Source: a virus (lineage: Duplodnaviria; Heunggongvirae; Uroviricota; Caudoviricetes). Taken from it: a stretch of 64,000 bases of DNA. A program made the position numbers and the translations under genes. This document shows positions 2,780 to 57,639 of this stretch, in pieces; the stretch's first letter is position 1; each line of letters opens with the position of its first letter. The notes under the pieces are model-generated. The model was not told the origin of the DNA, ran no database searches, and saw only the letters and a list, made by a program, of their open reading frames with translations. The stretch lies in the IMG/VR virus record IMGVR_UViG_3300018080_000114, one strand, 5' to 3'.

Positions 2780-2967
2780 ATGCAGCACTTGACGATCATC
2801 AGTGACTTTACTACATTGTTGCACAGACATGGACCGGATTCGAATGAGGTGGATGCGTTCATCAAGCAGTACGATCATCTGGAGGAGTTTGTGGGTAGGG
2901 CACGGACGTTGCGGGCTGTTTTTCGAGAAAAAGACAACGTGACTCAGGCACAGACCTGAGTTCAGAT

Positions 2968-3040
2968 GGGTGCGTAGCTCAATTGGCAGAGTTCCCGGCT
3001 CTTAACCGGATTGTTGGAGGTTCGATTCCTCCCGCGCCTA
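2968..3040 (+). tRNA. trnK: tRNA-Lys(CTT)
   Basis: Cloverleaf; anticodon loop CT-CTT-AA; T-loop TTCGATT. Confidence 0.9.
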
Positions 3041-3050
3041 TTGACAGTAA

Positions 3051-3160
3051 TGTCACGAAGACTGGGAGGTTGCAGGTTCGAATCCTGCCCACTATGGCAA
3101 AGCTCTGTTCCGGACAGGGGCCGTAAGTGGTAGCTCAACTGGTAGAGCGCCTGGTATGGC
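3051..3160 (+). ncRNA. Circularly permuted tRNA-like RNA, YrlA/Y-RNA-like
   Basis: T arm (3072-3088) precedes D arm (3133-3148); acceptor-like helix closed by a hairpin; the 5' and 3' ends pair around a CGAAG bulge. Confidence 0.65.
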
Positions 3161-3229
3161 CCAGTGGTGTAGTGGTTATCATTCAGGACTTTCGATCCTG
3201 AGACGAGAGTTCGATCCTCTCCTGGGCTA
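3158..3229 (+). tRNA. trnE: tRNA-Glu(TTC)
   Basis: Acceptor GGCCCAG/CTGGGCT; loop CT-TTC-GA. Confidence 0.9.
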
Positions 3230-3232
3230 TTC

Positions 3233-3315
3233 GGCTTGGTGGTGGAATTAGGCAGACACGCTGGTTTCAAACACCAGTGCCTTCGGGCGTGAGGGTTCGA
3301 TTCCCTCCTAAGCCA
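3233..3315 (+). tRNA. trnL: tRNA-Leu(CAA)
   Basis: Loop TT-CAA-AC; long variable arm. Confidence 0.9.
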
Positions 3316-3320
3316 TTAGC

Positions 3321-3392
3321 GGCCCAGTGGTGTAGTGGCTAACATTGATGGTTCTCAGCCATCAGCCGAGAGTTCGATCCTCTCCTGGGCTA
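3321..3392 (+). tRNA. trnE: tRNA-Glu(CTC)
   Basis: Loop TT-CTC-AG; acceptor and T arm identical to Glu(TTC). Confidence 0.9.
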
Positions 3393-3404
3393 ATGAAAAG
3401 TGAA

Positions 3405-3620
3405 TAAGCATAGGCAGTAAGAGTCTGAGAATCTCAGGGGAGGTCGCCTGCTTACGTAAGGGCCAAACCTCCAGCGCGACGCAACGCGACTGAGATGATC
3501 AGGTGACGTCACTGAAAAACCACCCCTTGCAGGAGAGCCATGCATGCAGCCATCGGCGTCGATGGGGCTCGATGAGTGTAAGTGTGTAGACTAGGTGGGA
3601 GTCACTGTCTATGTAGTGAC
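3405..3620 (+). ncRNA. Putative structured ncRNA with possible pseudoknot
   Basis: Several nested complementary segments and no tRNA cloverleaf. Confidence 0.35.
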
Positions 3621-3693
3621 GCGCTGTAGCTCAACTGGTTAGAGCACCGGATTGTCGATCCGAAGGTTGGGAGTTCGAGTCTCCCCAGCGTGA
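3620..3693 (+). tRNA. trnD: tRNA-Asp(GTC)
   Basis: Loop TT-GTC-GA; acceptor CGCGCTG/CAGCGTG. Confidence 0.9.
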
Positions 3694-3696
3694 TTA

Positions 3697-3770
3697 CGCC
3701 GACTAGCTCAATTGCGTAGAGTGCCTGTCTTACACACAGGTGGTTCTTGGTTCGAGTCCAAGGTCGGTGA
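3697..3770 (+). tRNA. trnV: tRNA-Val(TAC)
   Basis: Stem CCTGT/ACAGG; loop CT-TAC-AC. Confidence 0.9.
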
Positions 3771-3776
3771 TTGAAT

Positions 3777-3849
3777 AGGACTATGGTGAAAATGGATATC
3801 ATGCGCGGCTACGAACCGCGCGTTGTGGGTTCGAGTCCTGCTAGTCCTG
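3777..3849 (+). tRNA. trnR: tRNA-Arg(ACG)
   Basis: Stem CGCGG/CCGCG; loop CT-ACG-AA. Confidence 0.9.
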
Positions 3850-3850
3850 T

Positions 3851-3928
3851 TGTGATTGAGCACCGTAAAGGGATGAGAATCGTCTGGTATGCTACCCGAA
3901 AGGATGAACCCCAGACAGCTTAGTCACA
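3851..3928 (+). ncRNA. Putative small structured RNA between tRNAs
   Basis: 11-bp closing helix TGTGATTGAGC/GCTTAGTCACA; inner helix TCTGG/CCAGA; two copies of CC-G(T)AAA-GG(G)ATGA. Confidence 0.5.
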
Positions 3929-3931
3929 TAT

Positions 3932-4005
3932 GGGCGCGTAGCTCAATTGGGAGAGCACCTGCTTTGCACGCAGGGGGTTGTGGGTTCGAGTCCCATCGCG
4001 GTCCA
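3932..4005 (+). tRNA. trnA: tRNA-Ala(TGC)
   Basis: Loop TT-TGC-AC; G3:U70 retained; one extra base in the 3' acceptor strand. Confidence 0.85.
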
Positions 4006-4009
4006 TTAG

Positions 4010-4082
4010 GGGAATGTAGCTCAGTTGGAAGAGCGTTGGTGTGAAGTACCAAGCGTCGGAGGTTCGAGTCCTCCCATTCCCA
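4010..4082 (+). tRNA. trnF: tRNA-Phe(GAA)
   Basis: Stem TTGGT/ACCAA; loop GT-GAA-GT (atypical G32). Confidence 0.85.
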
Positions 4083-4087
4083 TTGAA

Positions 4088-4161
4088 GGCCCTGTAGCCC
4101 AATTGGCAGAGGCGGCTGGCTTAGAACCAGTCTAGTGTGGGTTCGACTCCCACTGGGGTCA
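4088..4161 (+). tRNA. trnL: tRNA-Leu(TAG), short variable loop
   Basis: Loop CT-TAG-AA; 5-nt variable region. Confidence 0.85.
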
Positions 4162-4322
4162 TTGCTTCTGGAAACCGTTTGAAGTGGTGAATTCTGGCAG
4201 TCCACGAAAGCTGACGAGCTTACGGTTGCGAATGGGTAGCGGTAGTGAAGCCCTAGGACAGAGCACATAGCAGGTCACACTGGAGAGTACTCTAAGGTGT
4301 GGCAAGCCAAGTCCAGAAGCAA
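4162..4322 (+). ncRNA. Putative multibranch structured ncRNA
   Basis: Perfect 11-bp terminal helix TTGCTTCTGGA/TCCAGAAGCAA exactly filling the gap between two tRNAs; inner helices AACCGT/ACGGTT, GTGG/CCAC, CACAC/GTGTG. Confidence 0.55.
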
Positions 4323-4324
4323 AC

Positions 4325-4411
4325 GCCAGCGTAGACTGCTAAGGAGGCGGCTCAGGCTGTAACCCTGATCCTCGTAAAGAGGCCGAGTGGGTTCGATACC
4401 CTCAGCTGGCA
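4325..4411 (+). tRNA. trnY: tRNA-Tyr(GTA)
   Basis: Loop CT-GTA-AC; long variable arm as in bacterial tRNA-Tyr. Confidence 0.85.
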
Positions 4412-4493
4412 TTGAAAGGAGAATTGATATGGGGCAGATTATAGCTTTGTGTTGTTGCTTTCTTTTTGGTTGGTTTTTTGGTGATCTGATTAA

Positions 4494-4566
4494 GCGCCGG
4501 TAGCCCAACGGCAGAGGCATCCGGTTTAAGCCCGGTTCAGTGGTGGTTCGAATCCACTCCGGTGCA
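4494..4566 (+). tRNA. trnL: tRNA-Leu(TAA), short variable loop
   Basis: Loop TT-TAA-GC; 5-nt variable region. Confidence 0.85.
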
Positions 4567-4582
4567 ATGAGGGGAGATTGAT

Positions 4583-4777
4583 ATGAGTGAGCTTCAAAGG
4601 GCAATGGAAAGTGATTTAGATTACTGGTACGGTTCAAATGAAGTTGACTTTGGTGACGTCCACAGTGTGGATGTGATGTTTCCTGGAGCTGTGGAGTTGT
4701 TGGTCCTTGAGTATGGACATGCAATGACAAGGGATCAAATTGAAGCAGTCTTCCAAGAGTGGACTAGTAAGCGATGA
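4583..4777 (+). CDS. Small hypothetical protein inside the tRNA array
   Basis: RBS GGGGAG; acidic 64-aa ORF filling the gap between tRNAs. Confidence 0.6.
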   Translation: MSELQRAMESDLDYWYGSNEVDFGDVHSVDVMFPGAVELLVLEYGHAMTRDQIEAVFQEWTSKR

Positions 4778-4848
4778 CCAAGTGTCCGAATGGCCTTAGG
4801 TAGCCGGTTGCAACCCGGCTTATGTGGGTTCGAATCCCACCTTGGTCT
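4776..4848 (+). tRNA. trnC: tRNA-Cys(GCA)
   Basis: Loop TT-GCA-AC; U73 discriminator. Confidence 0.9.
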
Positions 4849-4852
4849 TGAG

Positions 4853-4926
4853 TCCCCTGTAGCTCAGTTGGTAGAGCTTCGGACTGTTAATCCGAGTATG
4901 CGAAGGTTCGAGTCCTTCCGGGGGAG
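4853..4926 (+). tRNA. trnN: tRNA-Asn(GTT)
   Basis: Loop CT-GTT-AA. Confidence 0.9.
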
Positions 4927-4928
4927 TT

Positions 4929-4999
4929 GTGTTCGTGGTGTAGTGGTAGCATATTAGCCTGTGACGCTGAGGGGGCGGGTTCGAATCCCGTCGAACACC
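4929..4999 (+). tRNA. trnH: tRNA-His(GTG)
   Basis: Loop CT-GTG-AC; C73; the genomic -1 base is T, not G. Confidence 0.85.
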
Positions 5000-5128
5000 T
5001 TATGAAGAAGCCAAAGAGAAAACCGAGATTGCCAAGAGGCAAGATGCCTCCACCTTCACGAGTCCATAAGGATCGGAAGAAGGAGGAGAACAAAAAACGT
5101 TGCCGTCGTCCTATTGAGGAGGAATGAC

Positions 5129-5428
5129 ATGACCGTGGAAGAAATGTGCGAACTGTTTGATGCTGATGACAGTATATACCTCAAGTTCGAGGATATCGAG
5201 AATCCTCGTCATCCGAGACCGGATATCTGTGCGTTCTTGATGCTGCATGATATCTTGGGTGGAGAGGGAACAACGGACATGGTGAGTGCGGCTGAGCACG
5301 ATCAGATCTTCTTGGATGTGTCTCTGGAAGATTTGGCCCCATTGATCACTGAGGATCAAGTGAAGGATTTGATTCGGTGTGGCGTTCACACCGATGATTA
5401 TGGTGAAGGGCTGGCAATGTTTGCGTGA
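5129..5428 (+). CDS. Hypothetical protein
   Basis: RBS GAGGAGG; acidic ORF with DLCAFL/SAAEHDQIFL-like segments. Confidence 0.65.
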   Translation: MTVEEMCELFDADDSIYLKFEDIENPRHPRPDICAFLMLHDILGGEGTTDMVSAAEHDQIFLDVSLEDLAPLITEDQVKDLIRCGVHTDDYGEGLAMFA

Positions 5429-5639
5429 GGAGTGACATGTTCACAGACAAACAACGATTAGATTGGCTGCAAAAGCAGCTGGAGAAGAAAAAGTATACTG
5501 GAAAGTGCATCCTCCGTGGGTCTACGACGGGCCGAGGTTTTCGGCTTCATGAGACGAGTATGGAAGGTGCGGTGAATGATGTGCGAACGGCGATTGATCA
5601 GGCTATGGATGATCAGTTGTGGTGTAATGGTGAGCACCT

Positions 5640-5713
5640 GGGAGTGTAGCTCAGTTGGATAGAGCAACCGGCTTTTACCCGGTAAGTCGCAGGTTCGAGT
5701 CCTGCTACTCCCA
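5640..5713 (+). tRNA. trnK: tRNA-Lys(TTT)
   Basis: Loop CT-TTT-AC. Confidence 0.9.
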
Positions 5714-5717
5714 CTGT

Positions 5718-5791
5718 GCCGGTGTAGCTCAATGGACAAGAGCGCTCGCCTTGTAAGCGAGGGGTTGTGGGTTCGAATCCCTCCACCGGCT
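5718..5791 (+). tRNA. trnT: tRNA-Thr(TGT)
   Basis: Loop CT-TGT-AA. Confidence 0.9.
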
Positions 5792-5805
5792 TTGAAAGGA
5801 GCATT

Positions 5806-6069
5806 ATGTCTGATATACTGATAATCCCAGTTGTTTTGGTGGCCACTGTGGTGGTGTTGAGGGTGGCAAAGGCTATTACGGGCTGGCAACCGAAGGGAAA
5901 GAGATACTGTAACGGGTGTAAGTTTGGATCGGACAAAGCATGTTACCATTCCAACAATGTGGAGTTGGCCAGATCGTATGCGGAATGTGATAAGATTCCG
6001 ATCAAGCATCCGAGTGAGTTGAATCCAAATAATGATTGCCCATGGTATCGTGATTGGCCGGGCATGTAA
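5806..6069 (+). CDS. Small membrane-anchored Cys-rich hypothetical protein
   Basis: RBS AAAGGAG; N-terminal hydrophobic helix; CxxC. Confidence 0.6.
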   Translation: MSDILIIPVVLVATVVVLRVAKAITGWQPKGKRYCNGCKFGSDKACYHSNNVELARSYAECDKIPIKHPSELNPNNDCPWYRDWPGM

Positions 6070-6071
6070 TT

Positions 6072-6143
6072 AGACCTGTGGTGTAATGGTTAGCACCTGG
6101 GACTCTGACTCCCAAGATCTACGTTCGAATCGTAGCAGGTCTA
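6072..6143 (+). tRNA. trnQ: tRNA-Gln(CTG)
   Basis: Loop CT-CTG-AC. Confidence 0.88.
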
Positions 6144-6145
6144 TT

Positions 6146-6217
6146 GGGCCTGTAGTGTAGTGGTCAGCACCGGAGGCTTTGATCCTCCAAGCCCAGATTC
6201 GAATTCTGGCAGGCTCG
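6146..6217 (+). tRNA. trnQ: tRNA-Gln(TTG)
   Basis: Loop CT-TTG-AT. Confidence 0.88.
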
Positions 6218-6230
6218 TTAGGAGAAGCAG

Positions 6231-6551
6231 ATGATTACAGACAAAGACCGGATTGAGTTCTTGCAACGATGTATCGATGAGGGTGAAGTGACATGCTTTA
6301 CTTTCTCCGTAAGCGTGCGCACACAGATTGATCTAGAGATGGCGAAGACTGGAGACTGGAGTTTCCCAGACTTCCATTGTGATTGCGGTGTGGGATACAA
6401 TGAGTATGAGGACATGGATGACCCTGATGGGAACCTGCCCATCCTTCATTCCACAGAGATACACTATCATCCAAATGGGCAGGAGACATGGACGGACACA
6501 CGTCAGTGTAGAGTGTGTGGAGCGAAGTTCACTTTTGAGGAGAGCAATTGA
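6231..6551 (+). CDS. Hypothetical zinc-ribbon protein
   Basis: RBS AGGAGA; HCDCG and CRVCG motifs. Confidence 0.65.
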   Translation: MITDKDRIEFLQRCIDEGEVTCFTFSVSVRTQIDLEMAKTGDWSFPDFHCDCGVGYNEYEDMDDPDGNLPILHSTEIHYHPNGQETWTDTRQCRVCGAKFTFEESN

Positions 6552-7348
6552 TGGATAAGCCGATGTTGGCGAACAAGTTCGAAGACAAGAAGGCTACGTT
6601 CCCCTGTTATGTTCAGCCGAAGCTGGATGGGGTGCGGTGCTTGTTTGATGGGACACTGGCGTGGACACGAAATCTGAAAGAACACAAGCCCCATATAACA
6701 CGCATGCTTCAGGAGCGGTATCCTCTAATGCAGTGGCCTAGGGGGCTGGTGCTGGATGGTGAGTTGATGCTTCCGAATGCCACATTTCAGGAAACAGTGT
6801 CAGCGGTCAAGAAGAAGTATGAGATCTCTGCCACGTTGCAGTACCACGTGTATGACTGTTGGATGAAGGACCTTCCGGATCTCCCGTTCCACAAGAGGAT
6901 ACAAATTGTGAGAGAGGTGGTGAGAGATTATTGGGTGGTCACTCCCAAGCTGTATTTGGTGGAAGAGGTGTGGAATCAATTAGATGAGTGGATCGACCAA
7001 GGATACGAGGGCCTGATCTATCGGAACCCAAATGGTATCTACAAGCATGGGCGCAGTGGTCGTGACTTGCTCAAGCTGAAGAAGTTCCATGATGCGGAGT
7101 ATCAGATCGTGGGTGCGATTGAGGGCAAGGGCAAAGACATAGGAACACCGATCTGGGTGTGCCGTGTGTCGGCTACGGATGAGAGAACGTTCAAGGCCCG
7201 TCCGATGGGAACTTACGAGTGGCGCAGAGAAGCGTGGAAGAATCGTGTGTCTTACTATGGCAAGATGCTCACAGTGAAGTACCAGGAACTGACTGATGAA
7301 GGGATTCCGAGATTTCCAATTGGTGTGGAGGTTCGGGACTATGAGTAA
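6551..7348 (+). CDS. Minimal ATP-dependent DNA ligase
   Basis: Motif I QPKLDGVR, III LDGEL, IIIa YHVYD, IV GYEGLIYR, V LLKLK, C-terminal OB fold ending in RFP. Confidence 0.92.
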   Translation: MDKPMLANKFEDKKATFPCYVQPKLDGVRCLFDGTLAWTRNLKEHKPHITRMLQERYPLMQWPRGLVLDGELMLPNATFQETVSAVKKKYEISATLQYHVYDCWMKDLPDLPFHKRIQIVREVVRDYWVVTPKLYLVEEVWNQLDEWIDQGYEGLIYRNPNGIYKHGRSGRDLLKLKKFHDAEYQIVGAIEGKGKDIGTPIWVCRVSATDERTFKARPMGTYEWRREAWKNRVSYYGKMLTVKYQELTDEGIPRFPIGVEVRDYE

Positions 7349-7494
7349 GAAGAAAGAGGTCTGTTGGTTGTGTGGTGGGAAGGAGCCCAACGAGACTATC
7401 AAGGTCGGGTGTGAGACTCCTGGTGGTAAGCCATGCAAGACCAAAGAGGTCCAAGTCCATTTTGGGTGCCTGATGGATATGGACTATTGAAATA

Positions 7495-7567
7495 GGGATC
7501 GTAACTCAACGGATAGAGTACCGGCCTTCTAAGCCGTAAGTTGAAGGTTCGAATCCTTCCGGTCCCG
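7495..7567 (+). tRNA. trnR: tRNA-Arg(TCT)
   Basis: Loop CT-TCT-AA. Confidence 0.9.
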
Positions 7568-14930: not shown

Positions 14931-15949
14931 GTGGAGCTTTGTACTACATTATCCCAGCCAGCGTCATGCATGATGCGGAACTGGAATGGTCCCACAAGTG
15001 CATCTACGGAGTGATTGCCGGATTGGCGAAGCGTGAAGGGTACAGTTGGGCAACAAATGGCTACCTAGCCAAGTTGACTGGAGTCAGTGAGCGCCAGATC
15101 CAACGCATAGTGCAGTCACTGGACAAATCCGGGCACATCCGGGTAGAACTGGACGAAAAACGAGACCGAAAGATCTACTTGGGTACGACACAGATGACGT
15201 GCCGGGGTACGACACAGGTGTCAGGGGGGTACGACACAGATGTCGTACCATATAAAGAGGAAGAACAGGTAAAAGAAACAGGTAAAGTTGAAGAGGGGAC
15301 GACGACCACGAAATCAGAGGACCGGGTAGAGACTGACGGATACATTCTAGCGAGTGCTCTACTGGGCTTCATCCGGAGGAACAAGAAGTTCTACAGTAGG
15401 ATCGCACGGTTCTTTTCTCCAGAAAAAGAGGAGGATTCACTACGTAGGTGGGCAAAGGATTTCGATTTGCTACTTACGCGAGATGCCGTTCCATATGATG
15501 AGGCTGTGAAGGTCTTGAAATGGTGCCAGAAGGACGAGTTCTGGCAGGGCCAGATACTGTCTGGTGGGAACTTCCGGAAGCACTTCGATTCGTTGAAGCA
15601 TGCGATGAATGGAGGCTCCACAGGAGCCTGTGGGTTGCCGGATGAGAATCCAGAAATCACGAAGAAGATCATTGAGGCGTATGGGTGGCTGATCAACAAT
15701 TCGAAATGGAAGCCTGCACGCTATCAGGTCCCGAAGTTTATCGAGGCAGCAGAGCGCGTAGTAGCGTTCATCGATATCCACAACGATAGAGGCTTGAGCG
15801 CTGATGAACTGATCGGCTACCTGAAGAATTGTCTCCAGGAGCACTACCGAGAGAAGGGTGACATGGTTCATCCAGGAAATATGAACAGCGGATATACGTG
15901 GGATGTGTTGTTGCCACAATATCTAGAAAATGTGATAGGAGCGCTGTGA
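14921..15949 (+). CDS. Phage replication initiator/organiser-like protein with N-terminal HTH
   Basis: YGVIAGLAKREGYSWATNGYLAKLTGVSERQIQRIVQSLDKSGHI (HTH_36-like); C-terminal W...D.FW...ILS...FRKHFD segment seen in replication proteins. Confidence 0.7.
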   Translation: MSGSGALYYIIPASVMHDAELEWSHKCIYGVIAGLAKREGYSWATNGYLAKLTGVSERQIQRIVQSLDKSGHIRVELDEKRDRKIYLGTTQMTCRGTTQVSGGYDTDVVPYKEEEQVKETGKVEEGTTTTKSEDRVETDGYILASALLGFIRRNKKFYSRIARFFSPEKEEDSLRRWAKDFDLLLTRDAVPYDEAVKVLKWCQKDEFWQGQILSGGNFRKHFDSLKHAMNGGSTGACGLPDENPEITKKIIEAYGWLINNSKWKPARYQVPKFIEAAERVVAFIDIHNDRGLSADELIGYLKNCLQEHYREKGDMVHPGNMNSGYTWDVLLPQYLENVIGAL

Positions 15950-16547
15950 TGGAAATGGGAGAGTTCGAGTTTCTCATGATGAAGATGGGTGATCGGAAGA
16001 TCATCTACAAGCCAGAGAAAGGACTGACAATGCCAATGACTGACGTGGTTCGGATTCCTGGCGGGTTCCTATTCAGGAGCTGGAGAGATTGCTACGCTTC
16101 CGGAGCAGTGGCGACAAGTTTTGTGCCGGTTGGGCTTTTGAGAGGAGGATCGGTGTGATGGAAAAAGAAGAGCTGCTGAATGCCACGTGGGCATTAAATA
16201 GAAAACGCATTGGTGACATGGACCGTGATGAGTTGATTGACGTCCTGTTGTGGCACGCGAATGCGTACACAAATCTCCTGGACCGTCGCCAGCGGGAGGT
16301 GAGACGATGACGATGGGACAAGCATTGAGTGATCCGATCTTTGGGCCGAGCATGGTTCTCATGGGACTATCCGTGGTGGCTATTGTGATCGGTCTGATTG
16401 CAGGTGGGAGGCAGCAGAAGAGTTCGAAGTTTCAGGACTGGCTGACATATGGAGCGTTGATCGGGATGATCGTCAGTCTGGTTGGAATGATGACGGGAGC
16501 GCTGGTGAGCATCTGCACGATTTTGAGCCAGATGCAGACTATCTAGC

Positions 16548-33163: not shown

Positions 33164-34229
33164 GCAGATTCATGTGAAGAACTTTGAGTCTCATGAGGAC
33201 AGTGTGTTTGATCTGTCTCCTGGGGTGAATGCGATAGTGGGTGACTCTCATGTGGGGAAGTCTGCCATTCGTAGGTTGCTCCATTGGCTCAATATGAATC
33301 GTCCGTTAGGTAGTGACTTCATCAAGAAAGGCACTAAGAGAACGTATGCTCGGCTTCAGTTTGACGATGGTGTGGTGACACGGACAAAGACAGCGAAGAC
33401 GGGCAAGTACGAGTTGGATAGTGAGCCCGATCCGTTCACTGCTTTTGGGACTGGGGTTCCGGAGAAGGTGACAGATCTGATTCGCTTGTCTGATGTGAAC
33501 TTTCAGACACAGCATGGATCGTTCTTCTTGTTGCAGGATTCACCAGGGAACGTGGCATCCTATCTGCGATCTGTGACAGGTCTGGATGATCTGACAACTG
33601 TGGCCTCTGACATCTCTACTAGGCTGCGGTCTACCAAAGGATGCCTGACTACAACGAAGCAGGATCTTGAGGAGATGCAGGAGGAACTGGAGCAGTTAGA
33701 GCAGTTGGACATTCAGAGGCTGGAGGAATGCATACAGGCGTACAAGGAATTGGAAGAGCGGAATGCTGCGATTCAAAGTGAGCACCAATCTTTGGGCCGC
33801 ATTGTGGAGCGGTTAGAGGATCTAGAAGCCGCACCTACAGTGTCGGAGGAGGTTGCGGAGGGTCTATTTCAGAGGATGGACGAACTAATTGAGGACGGGG
33901 AACGTATAGATGATAAGAGGTTCCAGTTGCGAACGGCTCTGGAACGGATCGATGAGGTGGATGTGGAGGCAGTTGAGGTTCGTGAGGGGCTGCTGGAAGA
34001 TGTGCAGAAGGTCATTGCCACATATCAAACGAACATGGGTAGATCGGATGATTTGGATGGTTCCCTCAAGCGTCTGATTGCATTGGACAAGAGTGCGAAG
34101 CATGATGAGTTTAGGTTGGTAGAGCTGCGTGAGGAGGAGCGGGATTTGTTGTCACAGTTGACGGACTGTCCGCACTGTGGTGTGGCCTTGACTGAGGAAT
34201 CACGTGAGAGATTGATTGAGGATGCATGA
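33156..34229 (+). CDS. sbcC: SbcC/Rad50-like ATPase, N-terminal half
   Basis: I..I.VKNFESH; Walker A GDSHVGKS; Q-loop; coiled coil ending in the zinc-hook CPHC. Confidence 0.85.
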   Translation: MIEQIHVKNFESHEDSVFDLSPGVNAIVGDSHVGKSAIRRLLHWLNMNRPLGSDFIKKGTKRTYARLQFDDGVVTRTKTAKTGKYELDSEPDPFTAFGTGVPEKVTDLIRLSDVNFQTQHGSFFLLQDSPGNVASYLRSVTGLDDLTTVASDISTRLRSTKGCLTTTKQDLEEMQEELEQLEQLDIQRLEECIQAYKELEERNAAIQSEHQSLGRIVERLEDLEAAPTVSEEVAEGLFQRMDELIEDGERIDDKRFQLRTALERIDEVDVEAVEVREGLLEDVQKVIATYQTNMGRSDDLDGSLKRLIALDKSAKHDEFRLVELREEERDLLSQLTDCPHCGVALTEESRERLIEDA

Positions 34230-53521: not shown

Positions 53522-54013
53522 ATGAACGAGTTCGAGAAGGCGCTCGACATAGTAGAGGCCAAGACAGTGGAGGTCCCAGACGTGGTCTATCATGGTACGA
53601 ATTCAAAGCCATTCGATAGGTTCAAGCAGACGGGTGGGAAGGTGAGTACGGTCTTCGGGACAGAGGCAGTCAAGAGGACTGGGTTCTTCTTTGCGCCAGA
53701 CGAGGAGTTGGCAAGGGACTTCGGGAAGAACGTAGCAAAGGTCAAGCTGCATCTGGACAAGGTGATCGATCTGGAGCATGACACTACACTGGATGACAAG
53801 TGGGAGGCAGCTGGCTACAACCGTAAGTGGCTCACATCCGTGGAGACATGGGAGCTGTTCGACGGTGAGGACGGGGAAGAGTTCGTGAGGTTTTTACAGA
53901 AAAATGGATATGATGGAGCCGCATTTGTAGAGCCAGAAGCTGGTAAGGGTAGATCCGGCTGGGCGTTCGTGGCATTCGATCCGAAGGACATTGAGATACT
54001 TGAATGGAACTAA
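53522..54013 (+). CDS. ADP-ribosyltransferase-like protein
   Basis: VYHGT...F..F; GFFFA....A..FG; GYDG; resembles the ART domains of polyvalent phage proteins. Confidence 0.6.
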   Translation: MNEFEKALDIVEAKTVEVPDVVYHGTNSKPFDRFKQTGGKVSTVFGTEAVKRTGFFFAPDEELARDFGKNVAKVKLHLDKVIDLEHDTTLDDKWEAAGYNRKWLTSVETWELFDGEDGEEFVRFLQKNGYDGAAFVEPEAGKGRSGWAFVAFDPKDIEILEWN

Positions 54014-54025
54014 GGAGGACTAGGG

Positions 54026-54697
54026 ATGGATGAATTCAGGGATTTGGTAGAGTGTGGTAGTGCCGGTGTGCAGTTGGCATATGTCAAGGGACAGAAGGAC
54101 ATGACCTGGGGTCAGCTGGCAACGGCAGTGTATCAGATCCTAGAGACTGTTCACATTCCTGACGAGTGCATGGATGACGTCGAACGGTTCTGCAACGAAG
54201 CGAAGAGTCAGTTCCTGAGATGGGCCGAGAATGAAGTCAAGGCGGCTGGACTCTTGCAGGCTGACAGTGATTACGATGGGATGCTAGGTGAAGCGGTGTT
54301 GGATCTGGTCAATGTGTTTGACTCACAGAACCATTCCGGGATGAGCGCTGCGATGGTCAGAGCTATCTTCGATAACCTAGCGAACTGGAAGCCACTGTCT
54401 CCGTTGACGGACAATCCGGATGAGTGGATGGAAGTGAGTGAGGAGCTGTGGCAGTCAAGGCGAAACCCGGCGTGCTTCTCGAAGGATGGAGGTAAGACAT
54501 ACGAGGACAACAACGATCCATGCTGGCTGCATGAGGATGAAGATGGATGTACCTACTTCTCCAGGCCAGAGAATCCAGAGGACATTACGATTCACGAGAG
54601 TGAGCCGTATGAGGGTAAGGTGAACAAACAGGAGCTGGCACGGTTTGGCTCTGACAAGGACAAGAAGAAAAAGGAAGACGAGAAAGATGAGTCTTGA
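54026..54697 (+). CDS. Hypothetical phage protein
   Basis: E.ELKAAG...HSG.SA...PLSPLT...DEW....Q..R....F. Confidence 0.7.
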   Translation: MDEFRDLVECGSAGVQLAYVKGQKDMTWGQLATAVYQILETVHIPDECMDDVERFCNEAKSQFLRWAENEVKAAGLLQADSDYDGMLGEAVLDLVNVFDSQNHSGMSAAMVRAIFDNLANWKPLSPLTDNPDEWMEVSEELWQSRRNPACFSKDGGKTYEDNNDPCWLHEDEDGCTYFSRPENPEDITIHESEPYEGKVNKQELARFGSDKDKKKKEDEKDES

Positions 54698-55450: not shown

Positions 55451-56767
55451 ATGGGGTTTACGGATTATGTGAGTAGGTTCAGAAGTCAGTTGGTTAATTC
55501 CAGCAAGTATCGGATGTCCGAGGTGGAGTACCTGGACACATACTGGGATGATCTTCGCGTGTCTGCGAATGATGTGATCCTTGCTGGTGTGAATCCTCCA
55601 GAGTGGAAGCAGGTGGTGAATGATGGGGCTGGAGGCGCATCGTATGCTGTTCAGCTGGATGGAAGCACGCAGTACGGGACCGTGGGAGACTATGCAGGAT
55701 TGGATGTAGATGCCAATGGTCATCTGACTGTGGAGACATGGTTCTCAGCAGATACCGTGACAGGGTTCCGTCCAATCGTTTACCGTTCTGGCTACGTACA
55801 GGTTCAGATCCGCAACGGGAGAATCCGGGTTGCGATGGAGGGATCTGGATTCCAACAGACGGGTGTGGTCACACTATCTGGCGTGACGCATCATCTAGTA
55901 GTGGTGCTGGAGAAGAGTGGCAGTGATACAAACTGTACAGTGTACATGGACAACGTTGTGGTGGACAGCTTCGTATTCGTGGGCACGGTGTTTGGGACTC
56001 AGACCACAGATCTTCTCATAGGAACAAATGGTACGCAGTACTACAATGGGATCATAGACGAGACCGTGCTTTACAATGTGGCCTTGACTGCTTCTCAGGT
56101 TACAGAGAGATGGAATAGCGGAGCTGGAACGCAGACGGTGCCGACAGGTGTGACGAAGGCGTCAGATGTGATTGCCATGTTCCACTACGATGAGGGAACA
56201 GGGTCAACGGTAGACAATGATTGTACGATTGGGGCTGGAGAGGATATGTCTCTCACAGGCTCACCCACATGGCCGACAGGGTTGATCGGTGGGAGTGCTG
56301 GGAGCGTTGGAGTGCTGGCGCTGTCGTTCTCGCCCACGATTCGGAATGAGGCATTCTTTCCGACACAAATATTGCACGCATGGAAGCAGGGTAGTGCGCT
56401 TCATCCGCACGTACATTTCGCGCCTAATGGTGCTGGTGGTTCAGGTCAGATGCCGAGGTTTGGGCTGGAGTACTCGTTGGCAGGTATCGGAGAGGTGTAT
56501 GGGAATACGACCACCATCTACACAACAGGAGTCGTGGCTGGTGGGGACACAACGTTGGTGGATCGGAAGCATTACCTGATGAGTTTCCCAGATATCGACA
56601 TGTCAGCGGTGGCAAATACGATTGGGGTGAGCGCCATGTTGCTGTGTCGGTTTTTCCGGGATGCGGAGCATGCGGATGACACGTATGCGAATGACGTATT
56701 CTTCAAGGAATTTGACTTCCATCTAGAACATGACAGTCCTGGAAGTCGTAGTGAATATGTGAAGTAG
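55451..56767 (+). CDS. Virion-associated protein with LamG/concanavalin-like domain
   Basis: LTVETWF, HHLVVV, VYMDN, IGT...YYNGIIDETVLYNVALT; Gly/Thr-rich. Confidence 0.75.
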   Translation: MGFTDYVSRFRSQLVNSSKYRMSEVEYLDTYWDDLRVSANDVILAGVNPPEWKQVVNDGAGGASYAVQLDGSTQYGTVGDYAGLDVDANGHLTVETWFSADTVTGFRPIVYRSGYVQVQIRNGRIRVAMEGSGFQQTGVVTLSGVTHHLVVVLEKSGSDTNCTVYMDNVVVDSFVFVGTVFGTQTTDLLIGTNGTQYYNGIIDETVLYNVALTASQVTERWNSGAGTQTVPTGVTKASDVIAMFHYDEGTGSTVDNDCTIGAGEDMSLTGSPTWPTGLIGGSAGSVGVLALSFSPTIRNEAFFPTQILHAWKQGSALHPHVHFAPNGAGGSGQMPRFGLEYSLAGIGEVYGNTTTIYTTGVVAGGDTTLVDRKHYLMSFPDIDMSAVANTIGVSAMLLCRFFRDAEHADDTYANDVFFKEFDFHLEHDSPGSRSEYVK

Positions 56768-57122
56768 GGGTGATCTGGGTAACACGGAGGGAGTGCCTCT
56801 GTGGGTGCAGGTGATATGCCGCACTATCTGGATCGAGTTGTAAGGAGGATGTATCATGAGAATGCCGGAAGCAGGAGAGTGTCTTGTGGGCAAAGTGTGT
56901 GTCTGTTCAGTGGGCAGACCGTTCATCGTAACGCACCAGCAGGCGTTTCCGTGGGGCGTAGCGTGGGCAGGTCTTGGCCTGGATGGGAAGGGTACTGCGT
57001 GCTCGTCCAATCCATGTGTTATTGCCGAGAGCGGACATGAGTTCCATGACAAGTTGTTTGAGCGATTCGGAGGGAGGATGAGCCACTTCGCAGATGGGAA
57101 GTGATTTTTTCTGAAAAACAAT

Positions 57123-57150
57123 TTGGATTGTGCAACGGATGCCGTATACT
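57123..57150 (+). promoter_or_regulatory. Sigma70-like promoter upstream of a structured RNA
   Basis: TTGGAT-N16-TATACT. Confidence 0.6.
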
Positions 57151-57186
57151 TTGGTTAGTGTACGGCATTTTCTTTAACAACTGAAT

Positions 57187-57370
57187 ACAGCATGTTAGGA
57201 TACCTCAGAGACTGATCGTAGTTGAGGTGCGTCTATGCTACTAAACCACTGGGCGACCCCATCCGATAACCTGATCAGTTGTCGGCCAAGCTTGATCGGC
57301 TTGAGGTGTTCTCCGCAAGAGACCGTGGGAAGCAGGTGCAACTCCTGCCTGAGGTGCCCTAACGTGCTGT
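57187..57370 (+). ncRNA. tRNA-like structured RNA with a large insertion
   Basis: About 22-bp terminal helix, T-arm GCAGG-TGCAACT-CCTGC and several internal hairpins. Confidence 0.6.
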
Positions 57371-57639
57371 GTTCGAGGGAGATGAAACCATGTTGATCGA
57401 TTGCTTGGGCAAGGCAGTAGCGAATACGCACAAGGATATCAAGCGGGCTCTGATGGAGACGGACATGGTTGAGGTGGACGGTGATGACCTGTCTATCAGC
57501 AACTTCTTCTCTGAGTCTGGGGATGAGATCAACGTGTACAACGGATACTGCACCGAAGGGCCTGCGGTGTTCGAGGTGGACGAGATCGATGAGGCTATTC
57601 GGACGTTCATGGAAATGATCGAAGAGGACGATTAGTCAT

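What the first reader, a model, noticed from the sequence alone, without database searches (positions are those of the whole stretch)
57187..57370. 184-nt tRNA-like RNA with two tandem hairpins bearing anticodon-like GAT loops
Seen in sequence: directly downstream of a promoter (57123-57150). ACAGCATGTTAGGATACCTCAG (57187-57208) pairs with CTGAGGTGCCCTAACGTGCTGT (57349-57370), 22 positions with one mismatch. The inner 7 bp resemble an acceptor stem, flanked by a D-like arm (GACT-GATCGT-AGTT) and a T arm (GCAGG-TGCAACT-CCTGC). The anticodon arm is replaced by a ~105-nt multibranch domain (CCAC/GTGG closure) containing CCGATAAC-CTGATCA-GTTGTCGG and CAAGC-TTGATCG-GCTTG. Both hairpins have 7-nt loops of the form Y-U-GAU-C-R, like tRNA-Ile(GAU) anticodon loops, and no tRNA-Ile was found in the array. 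Inference: an undescribed tRNA-mimic or decoy RNA (e.g. a sponge for Ile-anticodon nucleases or IleRS/T-box ligands), or a regulatory leader for the gene starting near 57389.
Basis: partly seen in the sequence, partly recalled or inferred. Interest (0 to 1): 0.8.

Follow-up and report, generated by a model that had tools for sequence, protein, structure and literature searches.

The report
Novel cloverleaf-shaped phage RNA
A real, previously undescribed folded RNA of about 190 bases sits at the start of an early operon in an uncultured phage and one relative; it is loosely tRNA-shaped, its two "GAU" loops are mutually complementary GAUC loops and not isoleucine-anticodon mimics, and its function is unknown.

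Summary
The element is real. It folds far better than shuffles (z -4.7). A 75%-identical homologue in a related uncultured phage (L001) keeps every consensus pair, 20 of them through changes on both sides. Rfam 15, ARAGORN and GenBank phages give no match, so it is an undescribed family with two known members.

A 27-position closing helix leads to a four-way junction of cloverleaf topology. One arm is a T-arm-like hairpin flush with the closing helix. A second is a hairpin with an invariant 14-nt loop. The third carries three hairpins. The proposed D arm and CCAC/GTGG closure are not supported.

The Ile-anticodon reading fails. Only GAUC is conserved in the loops. "Position 37" is C in 4 of 4 loops and "position 33" is G in one, whereas all 20 phage tRNAs have U33 and a purine at 37. 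The two loops are complementary to each other over 6 nt in both phages.

Close relatives use the same promoter without the RNA, and the downstream gene differs, so it is an accessory RNA module and not a gene-specific leader.

Best guess: a stable RNA cut out of the early transcript, possibly self-associating. Function is unknown. Earlier notes of this scan describe tRNA-shaped phage RNAs with self-complementary loops on other DNA. A sequence look-up with this RNA returned none of them.

The parts
57084..57113 (+). Intrinsic terminator ending the upstream unit (after the 82-aa ORF 56856-57104)
   Evidence: Terminator scan: 6-bp stem followed by a T run.
57123..57150 (+). Sigma-70-type early promoter, TTGGAT-16-TATACT. 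The start site is inferred near 57157. An inverted repeat (about 57140-57169) followed by TTTTCTTT overlaps the -10 box.
   Evidence: Repeat family D1/D4/D6 with copies at 57638, 59459 and 62409. Alignment with L001 and L003. The other copies are followed within about 25 nt by a ribosome-binding site and ATG. The start site is inference.
57182..57208 (+). P1, 5' strand of the closing helix. It pairs with 57349-57375. The irregularity U57201.G57356 and A57200 x C57357 is conserved.
   Evidence: There are 7 pairs with both sides changed in L001. The mismatch and wobble are invariant while neighbouring pairs covary.
57209..57226 (+). J1/2, an 18-nt junction strand that is almost invariant. It contains UGAUC (UGAUU in L001) and GUUG.
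Evidence: Alignments A1 and A2. Its complementarity to the GAUC loops and to CAAC of the P4 loop is conserved.
57227..57257 (+). P2 hairpin (57227-57235 / 57250-57257) with a 14-nt loop (57236-57249). The loop core GCUACUAAACCA is invariant.
   Evidence: RNAalifold: 5 of 8 pairs covary. The rival window-only MFE pairs here are broken in L001.
57258..57329 (+). P3 domain. Stem CCCAU 57258-57262 / GUGGG 57325-57329 encloses three hairpins: P3a (57263-57285, loop CUGAUCA), P3b (57287-57303, loop UUGAUCG) and the variable P3c (57304-57324).
   Evidence: P3a has 4 pairs changed on both sides and 2 on one side; P3b has 3 pairs changed on both sides. The P3 stem is invariant. P3c differs in length and sequence, with a GAGA tetraloop in L001. 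The loops are complementary over 6 nt in both homologues.
57330..57348 (+). J3/4 (AA) and P4, the T-arm-like hairpin: GCAGG, loop UGCAACU, CCUGC. It is flush with the 3' strand of P1.
   Evidence: Three pairs changed on both sides, loop invariant.
57349..57375 (+). P1, 3' strand. GGUGCC is invariant. The strand ends at the ribosome-binding site of the next gene.
57375..57635 (+). Ribosome-binding site GAGGGAG (57375-57381) and a small acidic ORF of 81 aa (57390-57635). This is the variable downstream cargo and not part of the conserved unit.
   Evidence: The ORF has only one other homologue in 5.8 billion protein clusters. In L001 an unrelated 68-aa ORF follows the RNA.

Best explanation
It is an accessory non-coding RNA module of a new family with two known members. 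It is transcribed as the first ~220 nt of an early phage transcript from a sigma-70-type promoter.

Shown:
- The + strand folds into a four-way junction of cloverleaf topology, closed by a 27-position helix (P1).
- A T-arm-like hairpin (P4) abuts P1 with no linker.
- P2 abuts P3 with no linker.
- P3 carries three hairpins. Two of them, 8 and 5 bp long, bear 7-nt loops whose central GAUC is invariant.
- Stems covary, while junction strands and loops are invariant.

Inferred:
- The RNA acts as an RNA and not as a switch for one gene.
- It is released from the mRNA by cleavage in the long P1 helix. That would be RNase III, or RNase P/Z-type enzymes at the conserved irregularity that lies 12 bp from the T-like loop.
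- The two GAUC loops pair with each other between molecules. The 1-2-nt linker between their stems makes a 6-bp loop-loop helix within one molecule sterically implausible. The result would be dimers or small oligomers, as in the manA, ROOL and GOLLD phage-associated RNAs.
- The cellular target is unknown. A decoy or scaffold role in early host takeover or counter-defence is the most likely direction.
For: - Fold z-score is -4.7.
- Of 61 consensus pairs, 59 can be compared and all are kept in L001: 20 with both sides changed and 6 with one side changed.
- As a less biased test, the MFE of the window alone has 67 pairs. In L001, 31 are unchanged, 24 are changed but still paired (17 on both sides), 10 are broken and 2 fall on gaps. 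The broken pairs include those that the consensus replaces with P2.
- Paired columns are 61% identical and unpaired columns 74%.
- Strand: there are 8-11 G.U pairs on the + strand, and the + strand MFE is 11-13 kcal/mol better than the - strand. The model scores 221-228 bits on + and about 20 on -.
- Indels of 1 and 2 nt lie inside the element, and the ATG at 57235 is absent from L001, so no ORF is conserved.
- No described family matches.
- Module behaviour: the same upstream ORF, terminator and promoter are followed directly by a ribosome-binding site and ORF in L003, L006-L011 and in Logan contigs of relatives. The downstream genes of the two RNA-bearing phages are unrelated.
- Loop complementarity: UGAUCA/UGAUCG in the window and UGAUCU/GGAUCA in L001 each give 6 pairs. 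Three of the four flanking positions differ between the phages yet still pair.
- GATC-loop hairpins are rare in the window: 6 on the + strand.
- Precedent: manA RNAs (under 200 nt, in phage 5' UTRs) oligomerise through heterotypic intermolecular kissing loops (bioRxiv 10.64898/2026.07.01.735769). GOLLD and ROOL do likewise (PMC12286853).
Against: - There are only two distinct sequences, so invariant regions may partly reflect short divergence time.
- The kissing-loop covariation rests on one double and one single change.
- Heterotypic and homotypic loop duplexes have similar computed energies, -4.2 to -5.4 kcal/mol.
- GATC is 2.2-fold over-represented genome-wide.
- J1/2 carries a third UGAUY that could pair with either loop within the molecule.
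- No terminator separates the RNA from the next ORF, so a purely cis role is not excluded.
- There is no expression, processing or oligomerisation data.
Confidence: 0.5

Rival explanations
1. It is a cis-acting 5' leader of the early operon. The structured RNA stays on the mRNA and acts generically. It could be a 5' stabiliser against RNase E, an RNase III processing site that sets the mRNA 5' end (as in T7 early mRNAs), a modulator of translation of the first ORF, or a put/EAR-like antitermination element.
For: The element lies between the start site and the first ribosome-binding site with no terminator after it. P1 ends 0-2 nt before the Shine-Dalgarno sequence in both phages. A helix of about 27 bp is of RNase III substrate length (established knowledge).
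Against: The downstream genes are unrelated in the two phages. The same promoter works without the element in close relatives. No alternative pairing sequesters the ribosome-binding site. The elaborate invariant loops and junctions exceed what a stabiliser or cleavage site needs. Only one terminator-like site was found in 55-60 kb, so there is nothing obvious to antiterminate.
Confidence: 0.25
2. It is a tRNA-like mimic or decoy, a generalised form of the first reader's idea. The P1(7 bp)+P4 stack imitates the acceptor/T minihelix, so tRNA-processing or tRNA-targeting proteins (RNase P/Z, CCA-adding enzyme, or a defence nuclease or transferase) bind or cut it. In the specific version, the GAU loops mimic tRNA-Ile anticodon loops.
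For: The element has a four-way junction with zero-length J2/3 and J4/1, a 5-bp P4 with a 7-nt loop, and a G-C closing pair with U, C, A, A at the positions of tRNA residues 54, 56, 57, 58. A conserved U.G plus A x C irregularity lies exactly below the 7-bp segment, followed by an invariant GCC at the positions of residues 73-75. The phage invests heavily in tRNAs: 20 in the window.
Against: Infernal's tRNA model and ARAGORN give no hit, even at E<=10. The T-like loop is UGCAA, against UUCGA in all 20 phage tRNAs. The loops have C at position 37 in 4 of 4 cases and G at position 33 in 1 of 4, against U33 and a purine at 37 in 20 of 20 tRNAs. The 'acceptor' is not a free end and has no CCA. The D-like arm is not supported.
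Confidence: 0.12
3. It is a ligand-binding aptamer, working either as a riboswitch or as an RNA 'sponge' for a small molecule such as a defence signalling nucleotide.
For: It has a multi-helix junction with invariant unpaired nucleotides. It is expressed early from a strong-looking promoter. Counter-defence genes lie nearby: Tad3 at 54026-54697 and ART-PolyVal at 53522-54013.
Against: No expression platform is visible. It resembles no riboswitch class in Rfam. The neighbouring counter-defence genes belong to a different transcription unit, separated by a terminator. This reading is pure inference.
Confidence: 0.05
4. It is a DNA-level element: a GATC cluster or palindromes serving as a replication, packaging or recombination site, not an RNA.
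For: There are three GATC sites in 184 bp plus one at 57395. The element sits at a mosaic joint between conserved and variable DNA.
Against: GATC density is near the genome average, at one per 126 bp. The many G.U pairs are strand-specific and the - strand folds 11-13 kcal/mol worse. Compensatory changes in five helices are not expected for a double-stranded site. One of the three GATC sites is lost in L001.
Confidence: 0.03

Closest known systems
manA RNA motif (Rfam RF01745) of cyanophages and Photobacterium
   Same: It is a short (under 200 nt) multi-hairpin RNA carried by phages in 5' UTRs, with unknown function. Its hairpin loops pair heterotypically between molecules to build oligomers (bioRxiv 10.64898/2026.07.01.735769).
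   Different: Rfam's library of 4227 families, which I expect to include manA, gave no hit here even at E<=10. The helix layout differs. Oligomerisation of the present RNA is only inferred.
Canonical tRNA and tRNA-like phage RNAs (Rfam RF00005)
   Same: Both have a four-way junction with acceptor/T-type and D/anticodon-type coaxial stacks, a 5-bp hairpin with a 7-nt loop flush with a 7-bp helix segment, and a genome rich in tRNAs.
   Different: Here the closing helix runs on for about 19 more pairs with no free CCA end. The T-like loop is UGCAA. The 'D arm' is an 8-bp hairpin with a 14-nt loop preceded by an 18-nt strand. The 'anticodon arm' branches into three hairpins. No tRNA program detects it.
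phi29 pRNA (packaging RNA)
   Same: It is a phage RNA of about 170 nt made from an early promoter. A helix is formed by its 5' and 3' ends, and two loops are complementary to each other and pair between molecules to form a ring (established knowledge).
   Different: There is no Rfam match. This phage has a classical large terminase and is unrelated to phi29-like phages. The loop sequences are palindromic GAUC, so they do not enforce head-to-tail order.
PeSL (promoter-early stem-loop) cassettes of T4-type phages
   Same: A repeated early promoter with an adjacent stem-loop marks the joints at which small early genes are swapped. The RNA occupies one such slot.
   Different: A PeSL is the promoter/hairpin joint itself. 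The 190-nt RNA is cargo between two such promoters.
GOLLD / ROOL ornate RNAs
   Same: They are phage- or prophage-associated RNAs of unknown function that self-assemble through kissing loops (PMC12286853).
   Different: They are 3-4 times larger and have their own Rfam families. No match was found here.

Membership tests
tRNA (RF00005) | Cloverleaf recognised by the covariance model or by ARAGORN | tested here: not met
   No hit at 57187-57370 at gathering threshold or at E<=10.
tRNA (RF00005) | Anticodon loop with U33 and a purine at 37 | tested here: not met
   The loops are CUGAUCA, UUGAUCG, CUGAUCU and CGGAUCA: C37 in 4 of 4 and G33 in 1 of 4. All 20 phage tRNAs have U33 and R37.
tRNA (RF00005) | T arm: 5-bp stem, G53-C61 closing pair, loop U54-U55-C56-R57-A58 | tested here: inconclusive
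   The stem, the closing pair and U54, C56, A57, A58 fit, but position 55 is G. All 20 phage tRNAs have UUCGA.
tRNA (RF00005) | 7-bp acceptor stem with a free 3' NCCA end | tested here: not met
   The helix continues beyond the 7-bp segment, and the 3' strand reads GCC then C (window) or G (L001), which is paired. Processing to a free end is not testable here.
tmRNA | tRNA-like domain plus a conserved tag reading frame | tested here: not met
   ARAGORN finds no tmRNA. Rfam gives no hit. The only internal ATG (57235) is absent from L001.
Y RNA / YrlA | Match to the Rfam Y-RNA-type models | tested here: not met
   The Rfam search returned no Y-RNA-type family at E<=10. I did not check which such models the library holds.
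Y RNA / YrlA | A Ro/Rsr (TROVE) protein encoded with it | not tested
   The window's ORFs were not all scanned. None of the 10 neighbours scanned has a TROVE domain.
manA motif (RF01745) | Match to the family covariance model | tested here: not met
   The Rfam search returned no hit to any family here at E<=10. That the library includes RF01745 is my assumption.
manA motif (RF01745) | Intermolecular kissing-loop oligomer | not testable with these tools
   The loops are complementary over 6 nt in both homologues. Assembly needs a wet-lab test.
phi29 pRNA (RF00044) | Match to the family model, and a phi29-type genome with a pRNA-dependent motor | tested here: not met
   There is no Rfam hit. The phage is about 139 kb (contig length) and has a 669-aa large terminase.
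   No hit at E<=10.
PeSL-type promoter cassette (context, not the RNA) | Repeated early promoter at the joints of variable small-gene slots | tested here: met
   There are four promoter copies in 57-62.5 kb. The content after the conserved promoter differs between relatives.

The most novel reading that the evidence does not exclude
A small phage RNA with a tRNA-like core assembles into a defined homo-oligomer through its two mutually complementary GAUC loops, with the third UGAUY in J1/2 as a further contact. In that form it acts early in infection as an RNA-only decoy or sponge against a host defence or tRNA-directed enzyme. That would be a new class of RNA-based counter-defence particle.
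Probability: 0.12. Interest if true: 0.85.

Novelty: new variant of a known kind. Interest (0 to 1): 0.55.

Why it matters
Phages carry many structured RNAs whose roles are unknown, and several (manA, ROOL, GOLLD) have recently been shown to self-assemble. This element adds a compact (~190 nt), covariation-supported family. It combines a tRNA-like four-way junction with a pair of complementary loops, and it behaves as a swappable early-gene cassette. It is small enough for direct tests: native gels or cryo-EM, RNase P and RNase III cleavage, and defence-system screens. If it oligomerises or blocks a defence, it would link tRNA-shaped phage RNAs to a concrete mechanism. If it does not, it is still a clean new family for Rfam.

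Tried and rejected
Homologue hunt:
- Three exact or degenerate block patterns and two looser ones in IMG/VR found only the L001 contig plus chance hits, which model R1 rejected.
- A three-block pattern in JGI metagenomes found only a short contig with the L001 sequence.
- One pattern in GTDB genomes gave 16 chance hits, none confirmed.
- GenBank phages by blastn gave nothing.
- R1 found no second copy in the window or in the L001-L003 records.

Protein-guided retrieval:
- The 82-aa upstream ORF has 124 homologues. Contigs for P0002, P0003, P0007, P0009, P0012, P0022 and P0024 lack the RNA, and no DNA was returned for the P0004 contig.
- The downstream proteins led only to identical copies (L026, L054) or to a contig that starts too late.

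Sequencing runs:
- No RNA holder was listed.
- Logan contigs of four DNA runs did not cover 57198-57429. Relatives there continue from the promoter into other sequence.

Other checks:
- A trans-target search with the complement of the invariant P2 loop gave only a 2-mismatch site in tRNA-Glu, which is at chance level.
- Comparing gene content of RNA-bearing and RNA-less relatives showed no clear co-occurring gene, because the RNA-less loci are too short.

Readings rejected:
- Cobalamin riboswitch, tmRNA and Y RNA: no Rfam or ARAGORN match.
- attP or a host tRNA 3' fragment: the T-like loop is non-canonical (not tested further).
- A P1-pac-like TGATCA/G array: the hexamers are not conserved in L001.
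- A protein-coding reading: internal 1- and 2-nt indels, and no conserved start codon.

Full report
**Context.** The window comes from an uncultured phage. It holds 20 tRNA genes at 2967-7567. Its large terminase is at most 34% identical to any GenBank phage. The contig that carries the window's proteins is 139 kb long. The finding lies just after an intrinsic terminator (57084-57113) and a sigma-70-type promoter, TTGGAT-16-TATACT (57123-57150). That promoter belongs to a repeated family, with further copies starting at 57638, 59459 and about 62405. Each of the other copies is followed within about 25 nt by a ribosome-binding site and a small ORF. Only this copy is followed by about 230 nt before the next ribosome-binding site (GAGGGAG, 57375-57381) and ATG (57390).

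- The 22-position terminal helix is exactly as described. It has one mismatch (A57200 x C57357) and two G.U pairs.
- The stretch folds at -77.3 kcal/mol against -56.9 +/- 4.3 for dinucleotide shuffles (z -4.7).
- A portal-protein search in IMG/VR gave three related contigs. One of them, L001, carries a 75%-identical homologue at 15931-16130.
- RNAalifold on the pair predicts 61 base pairs. All 59 comparable pairs are kept, 20 through changes on both sides and 6 on one side.
- A less biased test uses the MFE of the window alone, which has 67 pairs. In L001, 31 are unchanged, 24 are changed but still paired (17 on both sides), 10 are broken and 2 fall on gaps. The broken pairs include those that the consensus replaces with P2.
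- Paired columns are less conserved (61%) than unpaired ones (74%), which is the signature of a structured RNA with functional single strands.
- The many G.U pairs, the 11-13 kcal/mol advantage of the + strand, and model scores of 221-228 bits on + against about 20 on - fix the strand.
- Internal 1- and 2-nt indels, and the loss in L001 of the only internal ATG, argue against coding.

**Revised anatomy (window coordinates).**

| Part | Coordinates | Notes |
|---|---|---|
| P1 | 57182-57208 / 57349-57375 | Closing helix |
| J1/2 | 57209-57226 | 18 nt, nearly invariant |
| P2 | 57227-57235 / 57250-57257 | 14-nt loop; GCUACUAAACCA invariant; 5 covarying pairs |
| P3 | 57258-57262 / 57325-57329 | Encloses P3a, P3b and P3c |
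| P3a | 57263-57285 | 8 bp, loop CUGAUCA |
| P3b | 57287-57303 | 5 bp, loop UUGAUCG |
| P3c | 57304-57324 | Variable; GAGA tetraloop in L001 |
| J3/4 | 57330-57331 | AA |
| P4 | 57332-57348 | Loop UGCAACU invariant; 3 covarying pairs |

P4 abuts P1, and P2 abuts P3, each with no linker. The core is therefore a four-way junction of cloverleaf topology.

**The 'Ile anticodon' loops.**
- In L001 the loops are CUGAUCU and CGGAUCA, so only GAUC is conserved.
- Read as anticodon loops, all four have C at position 37 and one has G at position 33. All 20 tRNAs of this phage have U33, a purine at 37 and a UUCGA T loop.
- An earlier unchecked note places a tRNA with loop CCGAUAA in a second cluster beyond the window.
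- The anticodon-mimic reading is therefore not supported.
- Instead, the two loops are complementary to each other over 6 nt in both phages. Three of the four positions flanking GAUC differ between the phages yet still pair.
- This evidence is suggestive and not strong. Homotypic duplexes are almost as stable. GATC is 2.2-fold over-represented in the genome. J1/2 holds a third UGAUY.
- Hairpins of this type are nonetheless rare. Six occur on the + strand in 64 kb, and two of them are these neighbours.
- P3a and P3b are joined by 1-2 nt. By inference, a 6-bp loop-loop helix within one molecule is sterically implausible. Pairing between molecules is the natural alternative.

**What is tRNA-like.** Five features recall an acceptor/T minihelix:
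- the junction topology;
- the 5-bp P4 with its 7-nt loop;
- a G-C closing pair with U, C, A, A at the positions of tRNA residues 54, 56, 57 and 58;
- a conserved U.G plus A x C irregularity exactly below a 7-bp segment of P1;
- an invariant GCC at the positions of residues 73-75.

No tRNA, tmRNA or other Rfam model matches, even at E<=10 in a 251-nt search, and the helix is not a free end. I treat a tRNA-like top half as an open possibility (about 0.12) and not as a membership.

**Module behaviour.**
- The upstream 82-aa ORF has 124 homologues in metagenomic phage contigs.
- In the closest relatives (L003, L006-L011, and Logan contigs of two runs) the same ORF, terminator and promoter are followed directly by a ribosome-binding site and an ORF, with no RNA.
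- In more distant relatives the ORF sits in other contexts.
- The genes after the RNA are unrelated in the two RNA-bearing phages.
- Similarity between the window and L001 ends at the 3' end of P1.

The RNA is therefore a cargo element in a promoter-delimited slot, as in the PeSL-type hyperplastic regions of T4-like phages. It is not a leader tied to one gene.

**Family size.**
- Eight IMG/VR scans (five DNA patterns and three protein-guided searches), one JGI metagenome scan and one GTDB genome scan were run.
- GenBank phages were searched by blastn.
- Eleven contig look-ups were made.
- Together these yielded only the window's own sequence and the L001 sequence (L004, L005, L025, L054 and L026 are identical copies).
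- The family is rare in what could be searched.

**Mechanism.**
- Shown: a conserved, strand-specific fold at the 5' end of an early transcription unit.
- Inferred: the RNA is released by cleavage in P1, by RNase III acting on a ~27-bp helix or by tRNA-type processing at the conserved irregularity.
- Inferred: it then acts in trans, possibly as a dimer or oligomer through its complementary loops.
- Short phage RNAs that oligomerise by heterotypic kissing loops are now documented for the manA motif (bioRxiv 10.64898/2026.07.01.735769) and for larger ornate RNAs (PMC12286853).
- Counter-defence genes lie 3 kb upstream: Tad3 at 54026-54697 and ART-PolyVal at 53522-54013. They belong to another transcription unit, so this association is weak.
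- Rivals are a generic cis leader (0.25), a tRNA-like decoy (0.12), a ligand aptamer or sponge (0.05) and a DNA-level site (0.03).

**Relation to earlier notes of this scan.** Unchecked notes describe tRNA-shaped phage RNAs with self-complementary loops on other DNA (e1-543660, e1-188585, e1-196085). A sequence look-up with this RNA found no look-alike in any scanned window. They show a recurring theme but are not independent support.

**Verdict.** This is a genuine, undescribed structured phage RNA. Function is unknown. Self-association and tRNA-like processing are the testable ideas.

Noticed in passing
window 53522-54697: Two adjacent counter-defence-type genes: an ART-PolyVal ADP-ribosyltransferase (53522-54013, E 1e-9) and a Tad3-family Thoeris inhibitor (54026-54697, E 5e-34). 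The ART gene is conserved in L001, L003, L006 and L054.
   Followed up: partly
window about 57140-57177 (also L001, L003): An 11-bp inverted repeat (ATGCCGTATAC ... GTGTACGGCAT) followed by TTTTCTTT overlaps the -10 box of the promoter, and it is conserved with a compensatory-type change in L001 and L003. It could be a second terminator for upstream read-through or an operator. It is absent from the other promoter copies.
   Followed up: partly
window 57121, 57638, 59459, about 62405: A repeated early promoter family (TTGNAT/TTGCAT, 16-17 nt, TATACTTTAGGT) delimits slots of small ORFs. The slot content differs between related phages, a PeSL-like mosaic.
   Followed up: partly
whole window: Strong tetranucleotide palindrome bias. 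GATC is 2.2-fold over-represented (506 sites). TTAA (0.15), CGCG (0.26), CTAG (0.29) and TATA (0.32) are strongly under-represented.
   Followed up: no
window 56856-57104: A Cys-rich 82-aa ORF with no Pfam family but 124 homologues in large uncultured phage contigs. It appears in several genomic contexts: next to NAMPT and RNase H, next to Cpn10, and after tail-like genes.
   Followed up: partly
window 55451-56767: A 438-aa protein with a LamG / concanavalin-like domain that has no relative in IMG/VR by the close search and is not conserved in L001. It looks like a variable, possibly host-recognition gene just upstream of the early region.
   Followed up: no
window 33421-33443: The only other long-stem (8 bp) hairpin with a GATC-centred 7-nt loop on the + strand (loop CCGAUCC). 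It was not examined further.
   Followed up: no
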